Shown here in pieces: positions 22,733 through 43,656 of a DNA stretch of 64,000 nucleotides (position 1 is its first letter; the number at the start of each line of letters is the position of its first letter). Under the pieces are notes generated by a model. That model was not told the DNA's origin. It saw only the letters and a list, made by a program, of their open reading frames with translations, and ran no database searches. The stretch spans positions 1,178,001 to 1,242,000 of the forward strand of contig CM039008.1 of the NCBI GenBank assembly GCA_017499595.2. Direction: 5' to 3'. A program made the translations under genes and the position numbers. This DNA is from Psilocybe cubensis (taxonomy: Eukaryota).

Positions 22733-23611
22733 GATGACGGATGGAGAAACAAAAAGAGCAACTTTGAGAACGGAAAGAAGAACCAAGAATTTGGAAACTA
22801 TGAGGAAAGAGGCATTTGGTTATATGATTTTATAGCATAGAGGTGTAGTTTTGTCAACGCGTACCTGACGTACATATGATAATGTCAATATCTCCGGGCT
22901 TAGCTCAAATTTCGTACCGCAGAAGCTAGATAGACGCCCAGTTATTCACAAAAGACCACTTCTCGATTGCCAGTCAGCTGCAAGAAGAAAATGCGTGCAA
23001 TACACGCTTGTATTTGAAACACCACAGGATGTCGGATCGGTCATTGCTACGTTTGCACTTGACCGTGCGTCGTATCCTAAATGGAACATGAGATAATGCT
23101 TGCGACTGCCTTAGTTTGCTATTATTGTATCTTAATCATGGGCGCCATACTACCATTTCGATCAGTTTTCATTGAACTCTCAGTGATCTGGCTTGCTTAT
23201 GTGCTAGAATAGAATGCAATGACTCAAATAACCACCCAATAGTCTCTGGGCGCCAACATGGGTATGATAGGATTCCGTCTGTTCATCAATAGGAGGAAAC
23301 GTGTGTATCCCATGCGTTGAACTTCCTACCCCAAAACATTCTTGCATCGTGGTATGTACCAGGCAGTTCAGCCTAATTGGGCTTTACATCAGCAATACCG
23401 GGGCCAAGTAGGTAATGATCCGTAGTGATACGTAATTCTGTAGTGCCCATAGTAACGGTCCCATTTGGGTAACACACACTGATGTACCTGTAGCTTGGTA
23501 CCAACGTGACATGGTACTCTGTAGTGATCTGTATTGTAACGCGAGTGCTGTGTAGCGGCATGTAGCATGCTTACCATGGTCCATACCCCTCTGTATACAA
23601 CTGACATACAA

Positions 23612-23683
23612 ATTGTAGCATACTACCACAGATTTGTAGCATGCTACCACAGATTTGTAGCATGCTACCACAGATTTGTAGCA
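23612..23683 (+). repeat. 21-bp tandem subterminal repeat (TTGTAGCATGCTACCACAGAT, ~3.4 copies)
   Basis: Read directly; the consensus unit contains the palindrome GTAGCATGCTAC. Confidence 0.9.
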
Positions 23684-23951
23684 CATCATAACACACTGCA
23701 AATAGGTACAAAGGCATATATAGTATCCACTTTCATTTGTATAGTGTTGTGTGGCTATTCCTGCAAGTGCCAATATCACACTGAAAACCGAACTATTTTT
23801 GACTAAAATGGGCAATTTTAAAAATAGATAATCTATGTTTGGATCGGACCAAACATGTTTCTATTAGTAGATGCATAACTATTAATACGTGACGATCTAA
23901 ATATGGTATCTTCTAATCCACACCCGGCAGCTGCCCCGCTCATTCACCCAA

Positions 23952-40531: not shown

Positions 40532-40775
40532 TCTCAATAAGTTTCAACTTTCACGACCGCGCCATGTAGTACGCATTCTCAATAATCACTCTTTTGCTTG
40601 CCACCACTACGCGCGCTCCTCCCGCATTCAGTTAGATAGGCATCTTCTTAGACTAGCCTAGAAAAATCTATAGAACTTTGTTTTACGTATACAGAACCCC
40701 TGAAGAATTTTTATACCCGCGAAGTTTGTTTTCAGCTTGAATTCCAACTACGACAAAGTGAGCGTATCACACACC

Positions 40776-41326
40776 ATGCAAATCATCAGCTATGAGGAAA
40801 TTTTACGAATCGAAGCAGAAGTATTGGCCCCTACTTTCCCAGATCTAATACATCCTACAACTTTCCCAGAGGCCGCCTCACTTGCTTCTCAAAGACAGCA
40901 ATACGACTTGGAAATGGCTCAGTTAGTTGAGCAGACCCAAAAAATGGTCCTTTTGACCGAGAACAGGCTGATACTGGCCATCCTGGCCCTTTTCAATGAA
41001 ATTAACTGGACCACCCTGGACCCAAGGTTACTATCGTTGGCTAAAGCCAAGATTACCGAGGGTGACCAGTGGCTCAAAGCACGAGCCGTGAGTTTTCTGT
41101 TTCTTCAAGTTTCAAGTTGATACTCTTGCTTAAGATAACTAGGAGGAGACACTTCGGGATGCAGACTCAGGCAGCCCCGAGCACATATTGACCCAAGGGA
41201 TGTCCATTATAGCCAACGGCCAGATTCATATTCGAACGGTAGAGGTGAGTCACAGTGATAACTACTTTGTTTCTACACTTTCTTAGTAATGGGCAGGATC
41301 TCATACGAGAATGTCAGGATCATTAA
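40776..41326 (+). CDS. Small helical hypothetical protein (element cargo), three exons
   Basis: MQIISYEEIL..LKARA / EETLRDAD..RTVE / DLIRECQDH* joined in frame across GT-AG introns. Confidence 0.6.
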
Positions 41327-43656
41327 TAGGGTCAAGATACTACATTGTAAATAGACACTTAATTGCCTTTAAAAATGTACATTTTATTGCTTGATATGAT
41401 TGAAGAGCTTTACTGAGACCAATCACATTGGACATCAAACTCTCCTAAGTCTGGAATTGTACATAGAGATAGCTAGGAAAATCCAAAGCTCGCAGTAGTA
41501 ATGTTGGAATGCTACAGAGCTCAACGGAGCATCCCGCCGATGACACATGACGCTATACTGTCTACAGCCCACTTTGATGCTACATCCGGTTGGCAGGACA
41601 ATACGTTGAGTTACCTCCAAAAATCCGGATTTACTGATGTAACAAAGTTCTTTTTCAGTACCGTACACGCCTCCTGATCAACAACGGCATATAGAATGTC
41701 ACAATGCAACTTCCGGTTATTTTTGTCAGTTCGGATGAATGGAAGACATCTGTTTCTTTAGCACGCAGTCCGACAGTCACAAGGGTGCTTTTTTCTGCTG
41801 TTTCACTCATTCACAGGGGATACTATTATCATTTGAATAGATGAGGCTTCATAGAAGAGTCAAATGCCAGCTCATGGATGTAGCATTCAATTTTCATCGA
41901 TCGCAATGATGTCGGTAGGCATAATTAATCACATAAAGCGTGTAGATGAGAGCTGATATAGATTATGACCTCGTCATCTCAATGAAAATGACCAGATGTT
42001 GTCTGTTGAAAAGAATAAACTTTAAGCGACGTTCAATTGCATCTGAGCATCCCTAATCATCTCTTCATTGTCACCTCTAGTCGAGTTACCACTTCAGCTC
42101 CTTACACACCGTTACAACAATGGCCAAACCTCCTCCACTAGTTGTCAGGTTGATTGGGATAGGAAAATACGAGTATTACCCTTTTCTTGACGCAAAAGGG
42201 GACACCAATGCCGACGACCTTTACAATTTCCTTAACAAGGAATACAAAGATGGCAGAGAATGCGACATAAAGGTGGTCAAAGATGCTACGAAAGAGGCGA
42301 TTCTGGCAGAGCTGAGATCCCTTCGGGAACCAGTCGATCGAACCAAGGGAATAGTCGTTTTCTTTTCTAGTTACGGAGGCAGCACGGGCGAAGGCACCTC
42401 GATAATATGTCCTACGGATATTGCAAGAACAGAGAAGAGTAAAGGTATCACCGACAAAGAGCTTACGCAGTTATTTGACTCAATTGCCAAGTTCCGCGGG
42501 AAAAATATTGTAAGTCGATTACACGAATCGCCGAGTCAAACGTTGAATAAAAATTGAATATAATCACGCAGACCTTTTTCCTGGATGCCCCTTCTTTGGC
42601 CTTTGATTGGGGATGGCCAAGTTCTTTTTTTTTTTTTTTTTTTTATTTTTTTTATTTTATGTTATAGCCTCTGAGGGGTGGGCCCCTCCCTTGGCTTAGT
42701 ACTACCATTACAGTTTCTCTATATAGGTTGTAATTCTACTGTTCCATGTGTACTGTGTAAAGGAATAAAAAGTGTTGCTTATGAGAGATTACTAACATTT
42801 ATTGCGGCGTGGTGTTTTCTGCGTGGGGTGCTAGAGTTGGAGTTGAAGGTTGAGGTTTCCTCTTCCGCTCCCGATATCGAGAGACTCGACACCAGGAGCC
42901 AAAGAGAAAAATGCCAGAGTGATAGAGCCGTTCTGTGATGTTCTTGTCTTCAAACCTAATGAGAATAGAAAGTCGGTCCTTCTGGAACTCCTCCCCATCG
43001 CGACAAAGAGCCCGTATTTGCCCTCGGATATCCTGCCTAGATACCCCTGCCTCGTTTTCAAGTAATGACCATATGCTGTTTTTTGGAGTGGCGGAGTCGA
43101 AAGAGTCGCGAAGTGAATCGGCTGGGAGATCATGGACCACTATACCATGCCATGGCACATCCGAGTGAACTGTGGGTGGGTCACCAATAGTTGAATCAAA
43201 ATTAGGAAAGCAATCGGAGGCCTGAGCTGCTTGAAGAATAGTCATCGGGCGAGCTTTTATTCTAGCAGTTCCAGTGTCGTTTGCAGTGTGGATAATGAGC
43301 CTTCCTGATTTTGAGACATTAGCTCCGAGAACATGACGAGGGGGGTCCCGTGACATTGGCGAGAGCTCGCTATTGAGTCGCTCCACAAAATCAGTGAGTG
43401 GACCAGATGGCTGTGTAAGTGGAAAGTCATCCCAGGATGCAATAAGGCGATTATTTGAGGAATAATGGCGGGTTGGACCGCTCCTTGATCCGCTACCACC
43501 ACCTTCAGCTGCTTTCCCACGCACTTAGAGCGCGAGAAAAGACTGCCAGGGGTTACAAGCAATCGAGTAGAGTATCTAAAACACAAAAACGTACCTAAAA
43601 GTACACAAAACACCCAATTCTCACAACAAAACACCCACGCCAACTTAATCTGTCAA

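What the first reader, a model, noticed from the sequence alone, without database searches (positions are those of the whole stretch)
23355..41667. Giant Plavaka element carrying a chromatin/transcription toolkit (Spt5, JmjC, cyclin, DUF6532)
Seen: about seven genes between matching imperfect ends; three point left and four point right from a central palindrome. Cargo includes a Spt5 paralogue, a JmjC enzyme with an intact HxD..H triad and a Pcl-type cyclin. Known: Plavaka and KDZ transposons of basidiomycetes associate with chromatin-modifying genes. Inference: the element encodes an anti-silencing or self-transcription system (demethylation, processive elongation, CDK recruitment), comparable in scale to other giant cargo transposons.
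Basis: partly seen in the sequence, partly recalled or inferred. Interest (0 to 1): 0.85.

Follow-up and report, generated by a model that had tools for sequence, protein, structure and literature searches.

The report
Giant mushroom transposon carrying chromatin genes
An 18-kb jumping gene of the Plavaka type, present in about twenty copies per genome of a Psilocybe mushroom, carries its own histone-demethylase-like, Spt5-like and cyclin-like genes, so it may help itself stay switched on, although the copy in this window is already broken.

Summary
Window 23387-41639 (18,253 bp) is one complete copy of a PlavakaB-type cut-and-paste transposon. Its ends read 5'-CATCAG..CTGATG-3' and it has a TA target duplication. 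An exact empty site (23384 joined to 41640) occurs in runs of three studies. Read depth is about 19 times the flanks and even across all genes, so the cargo moves with the transposase.

Cargo:
- a ~1,300-aa JmjC protein, closest in fold to KDM2/7, PHF8 and PHF2, with H-x-D..H and the 2OG lysine kept
- an Spt5 paralogue with an acidic N-terminus, NGN and at least three KOW domains
- a probable Pho80-type cyclin (weak evidence)
- a DUF6532 protein (just under the Pfam cut-off)

The two arms diverge from a 267-bp palindrome whose core repeats the terminal motif.

This copy is dead. It carries CpG-biased C>T changes. One is a nonsense codon in the JmjC gene that reads show to be private. Two TGA stops lie in the transposase.

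The closest proteins are from Psilocybe cubensis. Anti-silencing or self-transcription remains inference, because no RNA or chromatin data could be obtained. Giant Plavaka elements with chromatin cargo are described in red algae, and TET-carrying ones in Agaricales. This cargo set looks new, so I rate it a new variant of a known kind.

The parts
23385..23386 (.). Left copy of the TA target-site duplication
   Evidence: The empty-site joint 23384->41640 has 2 letters that fit both sides. Sequence.
23387..23401 (+). Left terminal inverted repeat, CATCAGCAATACCGG
   Evidence: Begins with the CATCA terminus reported for PlavakaB (PMC12730594 section 3.2.2). In X13, 136 + 232 reads run off into unrelated sequence at 23386/23387.
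23387..23886 (+). Left subterminal region: 9 inward-facing TGTAG motifs, including a 21-nt unit repeated 3.4 times at 23613-23683
   Evidence: There are 9 motifs in one orientation and 0 in the other; the element average is 1.4 per kb per strand.
24066..26470 (-). Gene A: protein with a P/Q-rich and acidic N-terminal part and a DUF6532 domain. The exon model is approximate and the start may lie near 26690.
   Evidence: Pfam DUF6532 E = 7e-5, 23.2 bits (cut-off 24), profile positions 55-101, in 24306-24794. A second collinear piece, profile 158-188, E = 0.094, lies in 24066-24305. ORF layout.
26968..27198 (-). 77-aa helical ORF: either the last exon of the Spt5-like gene or a small separate gene
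   Evidence: No Pfam family. Unassigned.
27500..29847 (-). Gene B: Spt5 paralogue with an acidic N-terminus, NGN and at least three KOW domains. Exons: 29847-29800, 29743-29642, 29574-29293, 29242-28412, 28359-28094, 28037-27500. The 3' end is uncertain.
   Evidence: Pfam KOW2_Spt5 1e-13, KOW 9e-8, KOW5 1.7e-7, NGN 5e-4; KOW5 1.3e-6 in the next exon. PDB Spt5 5xon_W E = 2.2e-10. P0153 from another copy carries PF03439. Exon map.
29952..30218 (.). Central 267-bp palindrome between the divergent starts of genes B and C. Its core, TTA-CATCAGCCGCATCAC-G-GTGATGCGGCTGATG-TAA, repeats the terminal motif.
   Evidence: TTACATCAG occurs 4 times in 64 kb: at both termini and at both core arms (0.58 expected; 1 of 100 shuffles reaches 4).
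30391..35090 (+). Gene C: ~1,300-aa protein with a conserved N-terminal domain, an acidic repeat region (93-nt tandem repeat at 31999-32184) and a C-terminal JmjC (KDM2/7-like) plus helical domain. A window-private TAG stop lies at 30697-30699.
   Evidence: Exon map by tblastn of P0001 and P0004. Profile against PDB: ceKDM7A 8.9e-7. AF2 pLDDT 91.3. Foldseek: PHF8, PHF2, KDM7, KDM2A at 1.7e-11 to 1e-9. Triad. Stop, with 452 of 465 X13 reads showing C at 30697.
35561..38847 (+). Gene D: Plavaka DDE transposase with an N-terminal C2H2-like finger and a C-terminal DUF6830. In-frame TGA stops at 35612-35614 and 38155-38157. The TGA at 36463 lies in a 36-nt intron (36436-36471).
   Evidence: With TGA read as X: Plavaka 2e-81 over profile 1-325, and DUF6830 2.3e-43 in one stretch across the stop. 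Weak zf-C2H2 match (0.013) across the first stop. Sequence.
39008..39399 (+). Degenerate partial duplicate of the 5' part of the cyclin-like gene
   Evidence: Direct repeats 39008-39286 / 39441-39721 (88-90%) and 39291-39399 / 39939-40048 (81-85%). Frames with stops shown.
39608..40531 (+). Gene E: cyclin-like protein (Pho80/PCL type). The start and first exon are unresolved.
   Evidence: Pfam Cyclin_N 0.0032 and Cyclin PF08613 0.0049, both under their cut-offs. ESM Atlas 0.93 with 199 shared features, and 15 hits in PF08613 clusters. No PDB sequence hit. The AF2 single-sequence model was uninformative.
40704..41120 (+). 138-aa ORF of unknown function
   Evidence: no credible Pfam family.
41140..41639 (-). 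Right subterminal region (5 inward-facing TGTAG motifs) and right TIR (41625-41639)
   Evidence: Loose ends at 41639/41640/41641: 221 + 132 + 52 reads with low consensus agreement.
41640..41641 (.). Right copy of the TA target-site duplication
   Evidence: joint, both = 2. Sequence.

Best explanation
Shown. Window 23387-41639 is one copy of a young, multi-copy PlavakaB-type (EnSpm/CACTA-related, DDE) cut-and-paste transposon of a Psilocybe cubensis-like genome. The whole 18.25 kb moves as one unit into TA (TTAA-like) sites. It has 15-bp imperfect terminal inverted repeats and oriented subterminal TGTAG repeats. Inside the ends, beside the transposase, lie four accessory genes arranged as two arms that diverge from a 267-bp palindrome:
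- a JmjC (KDM2/7-like) protein with an intact metal and 2OG site
- an Spt5 paralogue (acidic N-terminus, NGN, KOW domains)
- a probable Pho80-type cyclin
- a DUF6532 protein
The window's copy is a polymorphic insertion that has decayed by CpG-biased C>T transitions. It has a nonsense codon in the JmjC gene and two in the transposase, so it could move only with transposase from sister copies.

Inferred (my odds about 0.35). The accessory genes act for the element. The JmjC protein would remove repressive or elongation-linked histone lysine methylation over the copies. The Spt5 paralogue would replace or join host Spt5 on RNA polymerase II, so that the long divergent units are transcribed through silenced chromatin. 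The cyclin would bring in a CDK. The palindrome, which carries the terminal motif, would serve as the shared promoter or control site, and possibly as a transposase-binding site.
For: Mobility.
- The empty-site joint 23384->41640 (skips 18,255; 2 shared letters) appears in X13 (17 reads, 14 start points), X7 (1 contig) and X5 (1 contig). These are three studies.
- In X13 the 26 inner bins have depth 542 +/- 51, against flanks of 31.2 and 25.1, a ratio of 19.
- 73% of laid reads (50,552 of 68,817) are at least 99% alike.
- Loose ends at both termini have low agreement (0.41-0.57), which means many different flanks.

Ends. They match the published PlavakaB termini 5'-CATCA..TGATG-3' and 2-3 bp duplications (PMC12730594 section 3.2.2). 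Subterminal TGTAG motifs are oriented 9 + 5 inward against 0 in the other direction.

Transposase. Plavaka 2e-81 and DUF6830 2e-43.

JmjC.. The family has 925 representatives at E<=1e-3, and 47 of the 58 members that have residues at all three positions keep the triad.

Spt5-like..

Cyclin..

Linkage in annotation. P0001 fuses the JmjC gene with Plavaka and DUF6830.

Decay of this copy. Among the 24 best-supported sites listed inside the element, the window has A or T where nearly all reads have G or C, and 17 of the 24 lie in CpG context against a background of about 26%. At 30697 the window reads TAG and 452 of 465 reads give CAG. Of 19 such sites in coding segments, 8 are synonymous, 10 missense and 1 nonsense.
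Against: - No expression evidence: no RNA holder was listed.
- No test of cargo linkage in other species was possible. No genome is held, and two search for related loci tries gave no usable pattern.
- Word-based searches found Spt5-like relatives only in P. cubensis: none among longer proteins, one among near lengths.
- The cyclin and DUF6532 hits are below Pfam cut-offs, and the cyclin fold model failed (pLDDT 38).
- Pfam does not recognise the JmjC domain.
- A paralogue, P0004, has lost H-x-D and the lysine, so catalysis is not always needed in this family.
- The two transposase stops were not confirmed as private, because 148 rows of the difference table were not shown. An intact transposase in the family is therefore inferred from the youth and copy number of the family, not seen.
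- None of 12 long JmjC-family members from other sources carries a Plavaka domain.
Confidence: 0.85

Rival explanations
1. The cargo genes are passengers: host-derived genes captured between the ends, amplified by hitch-hiking and of no use to the element.
For: - CACTA/MULE-type elements are known to capture host gene fragments (recalled).
- No expression data.
- The window copy accumulates missense and nonsense changes freely.
- The P0004 paralogue has a dead active site.
- Spt5-like relatives were found only in this species.
Against: - The genes are complete multi-exon genes with their own divergent promoter region, not fragments.
- The JmjC family is large (925 representatives), far from canonical JmjC (no Pfam hit), has a conserved ~1,000-1,400-aa architecture, and keeps the triad in 47 of 58 members. 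This is what long-term selection would give.
- The nonsense change at 30697 is private to this copy: 452 of 465 reads keep Gln.
- Four transcription/chromatin-type genes in one element are unlikely by random capture.
Confidence: 0.25
2. The accessory proteins regulate when and where transposition happens (cell cycle, meiosis or dikaryon stage, target choice) rather than counteracting silencing. For example, a cyclin-CDK could gate transposase activity, and the JmjC protein could act as a protein hydroxylase.
For: - Pho80-type cyclins pair with Pho85-type CDKs that respond to nutrients and cell cycle (recalled).
- Many JmjC proteins are hydroxylases; JMJD6, JMJD5 and TYW5 also appear in the fold list.
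- The palindrome core carries a terminus-like motif, which could let the transposase bind the shared promoter.
Against: - The best fold and profile matches are histone lysine demethylases of the KDM2/7/PHF8 group.
- An Spt5 paralogue points to transcription elongation.
- Nothing here tests timing.
Confidence: 0.2
3. The 18-kb unit is a composite of two half-elements. Each half is bounded by an outer end and a terminus-like motif in the palindrome core, and each can move on its own.
For: TTA-CATCAG..CTGATG-TAA in the palindrome core mimics a left and a right terminus with TA flanks.
Against: - Depth is equal in both halves.
- The only empty-site joint seen removes the whole 18,255 bp.
- No listed loose ends or joints at 30068-30102 look like a terminus, although the lists were truncated.
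- Beyond 7 nt the core motif does not match the TIR (no third match within 2 mismatches).
Confidence: 0.07
4. It is not a transposon: a segmental duplication, or a host gene cluster next to a solo Plavaka gene.
For: None found.
Against: - Exact excision-type empty site with a 2-bp duplication.
- Depth steps at exactly the two termini.
- Hundreds of reads leave both ends into different sequences.
- Family-typical termini.
Confidence: 0.01

Closest known systems
PlavakaB DNA transposons of Agaricomycotina (Kojima 2025, PMC12730594; passages and sections 3.2.2, 3.2.3 and the legends read, supplements not seen)
   Same: Plavaka transposase domain; termini 5'-CATCA..TGATG-3'; 2-3 bp target duplication; Agaricales host. 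Some members carry an epigenetic accessory gene (TET/JBP in Agaricus bisporus and Gymnopus confluens).
   Different: No TET/JBP gene was found here. The 2OG enzyme is JmjC-type by fold, with no TET among the listed Foldseek hits. The element also carries an Spt5 paralogue, a cyclin-like gene and a DUF6532 gene. The paper's text has no occurrence of JmjC, Spt5 or cyclin. Its Data S1 and Figure S2, which hold the reconstructed families, could not be seen.
Giant Plavaka elements of red algae (Bostrychia moritziana preprint, 10.1101/2025.02.11.637652; passages read)
   Same: Same superfamily and the same size class (17.4-19.1 kb). Several accessory genes with chromatin or DNA-modifying domains, one of them a 2OG oxygenase. 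Inverted-repeat arrays next to an accessory gene. An anti-silencing role is proposed there as well.
   Different: The accessory set there is PAG1 (unknown), PAG2 (N6-adenine methylase + SET) and PAG3 (ParB-like + 2OG oxygenase). Most of those copies are degenerate. Here the set is JmjC, Spt5-like, cyclin-like and DUF6532, in a fungus, and the family is young (73% of reads at least 99% alike).
KDZ transposons with TET/JBP genes; KDZ1-3 and KDZx1 of Cryptococcus (10.1101/2024.08.15.608186; passages read)
   Same: Large basidiomycete DNA transposons (6.4-10.9 kb) with extra ORFs. Mobility has been demonstrated.
   Different: The transposase is unrelated (KDZ, with CxC domains). The extra ORFs have no predicted domains. 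The elements are smaller.
VANDAL21 / VANC anti-silencing of Arabidopsis MULEs (cited in PMC12730594 and in the preprint; mechanism recalled)
   Same: A DNA transposon that encodes a factor acting on its own epigenetic state.
   Different: VANC is a sequence-specific DNA-binding protein that causes loss of DNA methylation. It is not an enzyme or elongation-factor set. It sits in a different superfamily and kingdom.
Specialised Spt5/NusG paralogues: plant SPT5L/KTF1, Paramecium Spt5m, bacterial RfaH and plasmid-borne NusG paralogues (recalled; search listing only)
   Same: A second NGN-KOW factor dedicated to a special class of transcription units. These are often transposon-related or horizontally acquired long operons.
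   Different: The eukaryotic examples are host genes that serve silencing or DNA elimination. Here the paralogue is carried by the transposon itself. It has no AGO-hook or WG repeats, and only one CTR-like motif was seen.

Membership tests
PlavakaB (CMCT/EnSpm-related DNA transposons) | Plavaka transposase domain (PF18759) | tested here: met
   E = 2e-81, profile positions 1-325 of 325 in one stretch, with TGA read as X. E = 1e-63 for the open frame alone.
PlavakaB (CMCT/EnSpm-related DNA transposons) | Termini 5'-CATCA..TGATG-3' | tested here: met
   CATCAG at 23387 and CTGATG ending at 41639. Criterion taken from PMC12730594 section 3.2.2.
PlavakaB (CMCT/EnSpm-related DNA transposons) | Target-site duplication of 2 or 3 bp | tested here: met
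   TA on both sides. The empty-site joint has 2 shared letters, seen in three runs.
PlavakaB (CMCT/EnSpm-related DNA transposons) | [quoted passage not shown] | not tested
JmjC 2OG/Fe(II) oxygenases, KDM2/KDM7/PHF8 group | Double-stranded beta-helix JmjC fold | tested here: met
   AF2 model pLDDT 91.3, pTM 0.93. Foldseek top hits: PHF8 3k3o 1.7e-11, PHF2, KDM7 (KIAA1718), KDM2A, ceKDM7A. Profile of A1 against PDB: 3n9l 8.9e-7.
JmjC 2OG/Fe(II) oxygenases, KDM2/KDM7/PHF8 group | Fe(II) triad H-x-D/E...H and the 2OG-binding lysine | tested here: met
   H185, D187, H259 and K202 of the 561-aa segment. They align to the HVD..H and GEK of ceKDM7A. 47 of 58 relatives keep the triad.
JmjC 2OG/Fe(II) oxygenases, KDM2/KDM7/PHF8 group | Match to Pfam JmjC (PF02373) or Cupin_8 | tested here: not met
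   No hit at E<=1 for the window ORFs, P0001, P0003 or P0004. 1 of 12 long relatives has a weak Cupin_8 hit at 3e-4. This is therefore a divergent family outside the Pfam model.
JmjC 2OG/Fe(II) oxygenases, KDM2/KDM7/PHF8 group | Histone lysine demethylase activity and substrate | not testable with these tools
   Needs an enzyme assay.
Spt5/NusG family | NGN domain | tested here: inconclusive
   The window exon scores 20.3 bits against a cut-off of 22.4. The sister-copy protein P0153 carries a precomputed PF03439. The motif GRIYVEAPS aligns to GHVYIEARK of Spt5.
Spt5/NusG family | KOW domains following the NGN | tested here: met
   KOW2_Spt5 1.1e-13, KOW 9.4e-8, KOW5 1.7e-7. KOW5 1.3e-6 in the next exon. 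Aligned to residues 408-576 of Komagataella Spt5, E = 5e-10.
Spt5/NusG family | C-terminal repeat (CTR) array phosphorylated by CDK9/Bur1 | tested here: not met
   Only a single SPAWNPYS motif, resembling the S. pombe nonapeptide (consensus recalled), in the 27488-28075 exon. There is no array.
Spt5/NusG family | Binding to Spt4 and the Pol II clamp | not testable with these tools
   No host Spt4 or Rpb1 sequence was in hand.
Pho80/PCL-type cyclins (PF08613) | Cyclin box recognised by profile or fold | tested here: inconclusive
   PF08613 17.7 bits (cut-off 21) and PF00134 17.6 bits (cut-off 23). ESM Atlas 0.93 with 199 features, PF08613 clusters. phmmer against PDB found nothing. AF2 pLDDT 38.
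DUF6532 (PF20149) | Profile match | tested here: inconclusive
   23.2 bits against a cut-off of 24, profile 55-101. A collinear piece, profile 158-188, E = 0.094. The domain is split by introns.
Starship-type giant cargo elements | Tyrosine-recombinase 'captain' (DUF3435) at one end | tested here: not met
   No such domain in the ORFs scanned. The mobilising enzyme is a DDE Plavaka transposase, with TIRs and a 2-bp duplication.

The most novel reading that the evidence does not exclude
A eukaryotic transposon carries its own RNA polymerase II elongation module. This is an element-encoded Spt5 paralogue, working like RfaH-type NusG paralogues on horizontally acquired bacterial operons. It is loaded at or near the central palindrome that carries the terminal motif. 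It acts together with an element-encoded KDM2/7-like JmjC demethylase and a cyclin that recruits a host CDK, perhaps to the single CTR-like SPAWNPYS motif of the Spt5 paralogue. Together they would keep the ~20 copies transcribed despite CpG methylation and heterochromatin. This would be a new class of transposon counter-silencing, acting on elongation and histone marks rather than on DNA methylation.
Probability: 0.3. Interest if true: 0.85.

Novelty: new variant of a known kind. Interest (0 to 1): 0.62.

Why it matters
Transposons that fight their own silencing are known from only a few cases: VANDAL VANC, TET/JBP-carrying fungal elements, and the proposed PAG genes of red-algal Plavaka. This family would add a different strategy, a histone demethylase-type enzyme together with a private copy of the universal elongation factor Spt5 and a cyclin.

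The family is young, present in about twenty copies, and polymorphic between strains of a cultivable mushroom. Mobility, expression and chromatin effects can therefore be tested directly. The JmjC-like family (925 cluster representatives, no Pfam model) is also a large unannotated protein family that deserves a name.

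Tried and rejected
- Whole genome: none is held, so copies could not be collected. Copy number rests on read depth.
- RNA evidence: no RNA holder was listed.
- Earlier findings of the scan: nothing for this genome, sequence or words. One search gave only unrelated prokaryotic and phage items.
- Cargo linkage in other taxa: the search for related loci on metagenome contigs, first with a 60-sequence and then with a 9-sequence alignment, found no conserved stretch to search with. 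I dropped this.
- The listing of cluster members: switched off.
- Spt5-like homologue searches: no longer proteins and one near-length protein. The tool needs shared 5-mers, so this is weak evidence on distribution.
- Cyclin fold: the single-sequence AF2 model had pLDDT 38 and is uninformative. phmmer against PDB found nothing.
- N-terminal domain of the JmjC protein: no Pfam or PDB sequence match.
- A TET/JBP (PE-type) identity for the 2OG enzyme was considered because of PMC12730594 section 3.2.3. I rejected it because profile and fold put JmjC demethylases first.
- An intron that removes the TGA at 38155 was considered. I rejected it because no GT..AG of suitable length keeps the frame, and DUF6830 aligns straight through the stop.
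- Iyer et al. 2014 (PNAS) is not held. Its content is cited only through PMC12730594 and the preprint.
- Literature searches for a transposon-borne JmjC, Spt5 or cyclin in fungi listed no such report. The supplements of PMC12730594, which hold the reconstructed Plavaka families, could not be seen and might contain a related element.

Full report

The region is fungal and rich in transposons. A 267-bp palindrome lies at 29952-30218: 133-nt arms, 93% complementary; DNA fold -157 kcal/mol, z = -33.

Pfam scans of single exons gave these results:
- Plavaka transposase with DUF6830 at 36466-38157
- Spt5 KOW and NGN hits at 28379-29242
- a DUF6532 hit just under the cut-off at 24306-24794
- two weak cyclin hits at 39608-40531
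- nothing for the proposed JmjC exon

The claimed matching ends are CATCAGCAATACCGG at 23387 and its imperfect inverted copy ending at 41639. Twelve of 15 positions agree, and each end is flanked by TA. Kojima 2025 (PMC12730594, section 3.2.2, read) reports that PlavakaB families have termini 5'-CATCA..TGATG-3' and 2-3 bp target duplications. The ends therefore fit a published family signature. The first and last 500 nt carry 9 and 5 inward-facing TGTAG motifs and none in the other orientation. The element average is 1.4 per kb per strand. This is the kind of subterminal repeat known from CACTA-type elements (recalled).

**Proof that the 18 kb is one mobile unit.**

No genome is held for this window. 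I therefore searched public runs with 19000-28999 and found 12 holders from 4 studies, none on record as RNA. I then laid one raw-read run (X13) and three contig sets (X7, X5, X10) on 22400-42399.

- A joint from 23384 to 41640 skips 18,255 bp, with two letters shared by both sides. This is exactly the element plus one TA. It is present in X13 (17 reads, 14 start points), in one X7 contig and in one X5 contig, which belong to three studies.
- X13 depth is 31.2 and 25.1 on the two flanks and 542 +/- 51 in the 26 inner bins, a ratio of 19. There is no step between transposase and cargo. The lowest bins are the palindrome (400) and a repeat-rich stretch (426).
- At 23386/23387 and at 41639-41641, 368 and 405 reads run off into sequences with low consensus agreement (0.41-0.57), which means many different insertion sites.
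- 50,552 of 68,817 laid reads are at least 99% alike.

The family is therefore young, has roughly 19 copies per haploid genome equivalent, and carries all its genes in essentially every copy.

A few deletion derivatives exist:
- 35823->37198, 25 reads
- 36252->41527, 7 reads
- 30732->33571, in X7 and X5 contigs at single-copy depth

**What the genes are.**

*JmjC gene.* A longer-protein search with the JmjC-like exon returned 4 proteins, all annotated from Psilocybe cubensis. P0001 (1,973 aa) is an annotation that fuses this gene with Plavaka and DUF6830. Its exons match the window at 100%, so it is this copy or an identical one.

With P0004, a paralogue 55-62% identical, P0001 shows that gene C runs from about 30391 to about 35090. 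It encodes about 1,300 aa: a conserved N-terminal domain, an acidic repeat region, and a C-terminal domain.

A 561-aa part of P0001 found 925 cluster representatives at E<=1e-3, 329 of them at E<=1e-10. A profile of 60 of them hit ceKDM7A (8.9e-7), PHF2, KDM2A and PHF8 across the H-x-D..H region. The AlphaFold model (pLDDT 91.3, pTM 0.93) matched PHF8, PHF2, KDM7 and KDM2A best, at 1.7e-11 to about 1e-9. JMJD6, KDM6 and JMJD5 came further down, and no TET enzyme appeared among the listed hits.

H185, D187, H259 and K202 are present. Of 58 relatives with residues at all three positions, 47 keep the triad. Pfam sees nothing in these proteins. Two of 12 long relatives carry a Ulp1 protease domain, and none carries Plavaka.

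*Spt5-like gene.* It has KOW2_Spt5 (1e-13), KOW, KOW5 and weak NGN hits. It aligns to the KOW1-KOW2 region of yeast, fission-yeast and human Spt5 (2e-10 to 2.5e-5). In sister copy P0153 it has an acidic N-terminus and a precomputed NGN domain. Its ATG (29847) lies 105 nt left of the palindrome, and gene C starts 100-170 nt to the right of it. The palindrome therefore sits in a divergent promoter region.

*Cyclin reading.* It rests on two sub-threshold Pfam hits and on an ESM Atlas score of 0.93 with 199 shared features to PF08613 clusters. PDB sequence search and a single-sequence fold gave nothing.

*DUF6532.* It is supported by two collinear sub-threshold pieces.

**State of this copy.**

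In X13 the differences run strongly one way: the window has A or T where the reads have G or C (A>G 45 places and T>C 52, out of 172 places). At the 24 best-supported sites inside the element, nearly all reads disagree with the window. The window's allele has a median share of 3.8%. Of these 24 sites, 17 lie in CpG context against a background of about 26%. That is the signature of 5-methylcytosine deamination.

In coding segments, 19 of these sites give 8 synonymous, 10 missense and 1 nonsense change. The nonsense change is TAG at 30697 in gene C, where 452 of 465 reads give CAG.

The transposase has in-frame TGA codons at 35612 and 38155:
- The first interrupts a C2H2-like finger.
- The second interrupts DUF6830, which aligns straight through it: 148 bits with read-through against 52 without.
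- Both would arise from CGA at a CpG. Their privacy could not be checked, because 148 rows of the table were not shown.
- A third TGA, at 36463, lies in a 36-nt intron that the public annotation also splices out.

The window's copy is therefore a dead, polymorphic insertion. In X13 the flank variants stand near 50% and the empty allele is present, so the site looks heterozygous there.

**Mechanism.**

Shown: a DDE cut-and-paste element with defined ends, a TA duplication, and cargo that is mobilised with it.

Inferred, at about 0.35:
- The accessory genes keep the element transcribed.
- The CpG decay shows that copies are targets of cytosine methylation.
- A KDM2/7-type demethylase, an Spt5 paralogue and a cyclin are all parts of the Pol II elongation and chromatin interface.
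- They are expressed from a shared control region whose palindrome core (TTA-CATCAG...CTGATG-TAA) repeats the terminal motif. The motif occurs 4 times in 64 kb against 0.58 expected.

Rivals are passive passengers (0.25), control of the timing of transposition (0.2), and a composite of two half-elements (0.07). A non-transposon reading is excluded.

**Comparison and novelty.**

The element meets the PlavakaB criteria that could be tested: domain, termini and duplication. Clade placement was not tested.

Giant Plavaka elements of 17.4-19.1 kb with three chromatin or DNA-modifying accessory genes are described in red algae. That preprint states that in basidiomycetes only a TET/JBP accessory gene was known (10.1101/2025.02.11.637652, passages read).

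Kojima 2025 describes TET-carrying Plavaka in two Agaricales. Its text has no occurrence of JmjC, Spt5 or cyclin, and its supplements could not be seen.

Searches listed no report of a transposon-borne Spt5 paralogue, JmjC or cyclin in fungi.

I therefore rate this a new variant of a known kind, with moderate to high interest.

Noticed in passing
window 45098-51324, inside 43489-55600: A Ty3/Gypsy chromovirus-type LTR retrotransposon with two 300-bp LTRs that are 100% identical (45098-45397 and 51025-51324). It has gag, RT, RNase H, integrase and chromodomain. It is nested in a LINE whose ORF2 (endonuclease, RT, RNase H) lies at 51635-55600. The identical LTRs point to a very recent insertion.
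   Followed up: partly
window 61456-62663: A 1.2-kb element with 97-nt terminal inverted repeats that are 100% complementary, plus a second 54-nt pair just inside. It looks like a MITE or foldback element.
   Followed up: no
window 30067-30103: The palindrome core reads like a 31-bp mini-element: CATCAG...CTGATG flanked by TA within TTAA. The flank and terminus pattern is the same as for the whole element. It could be a nested end-pair, a footprint, or a transposase-binding site in the shared promoter.
   Followed up: partly
window 23387-41639 versus reads of X13: The window's copy carries private, CpG-biased G>A and C>T changes (17 of 24 listed sites in CpG context). The sister copy behind P0153 has its own changes of the same kind. 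The copies seem to decay by methylcytosine deamination.
   Followed up: yes
runs X10, X11, X12 (organisms D, E, F): Runs labelled as other organisms hold 0.13-0.26 of the query words. In X10, pieces of the element lie in 26 of 30 bins. The eight X10 pieces listed (296-687 nt) show 0-5 differences each. Depth is low (2-8) and there is none on the left flank. This could be a close relative, a mixed sample or horizontal spread. It was not resolved.
   Followed up: no
P0004 (paralogue of gene C in the same species): A paralogue 55-62% identical keeps the whole architecture but has R and S in place of the H and D of the metal site, and N in place of the 2OG lysine. It looks like a catalytically dead relative, perhaps from a second element family.
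   Followed up: partly
window 39008-40048: The 5' part of the cyclin-like gene is partly duplicated (81-90% identical blocks). The upstream copy has stop codons. In X13, 18 reads show a 108-nt 'goes back' joint at 40513->40406, so the copies vary here.
   Followed up: partly
window 42081-42554 (+), 17399-17980 (-) and 6895-7839 (+): The neighbours include a caspase-domain (Peptidase_C14) ORF 440 nt right of the element, an NDC10_II-domain ORF on the left, and an MTR4-like helicase gene. The insertion lies just upstream of the caspase-domain gene.
   Followed up: no
window 30394 and 30583: In X13, 39 reads with one consistent sequence leave the element behind 30394. X7 and X5 contigs start at 30583 with other sequence before it. 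Some copies therefore differ near the start of gene C, by an insertion or a rearrangement.
   Followed up: no
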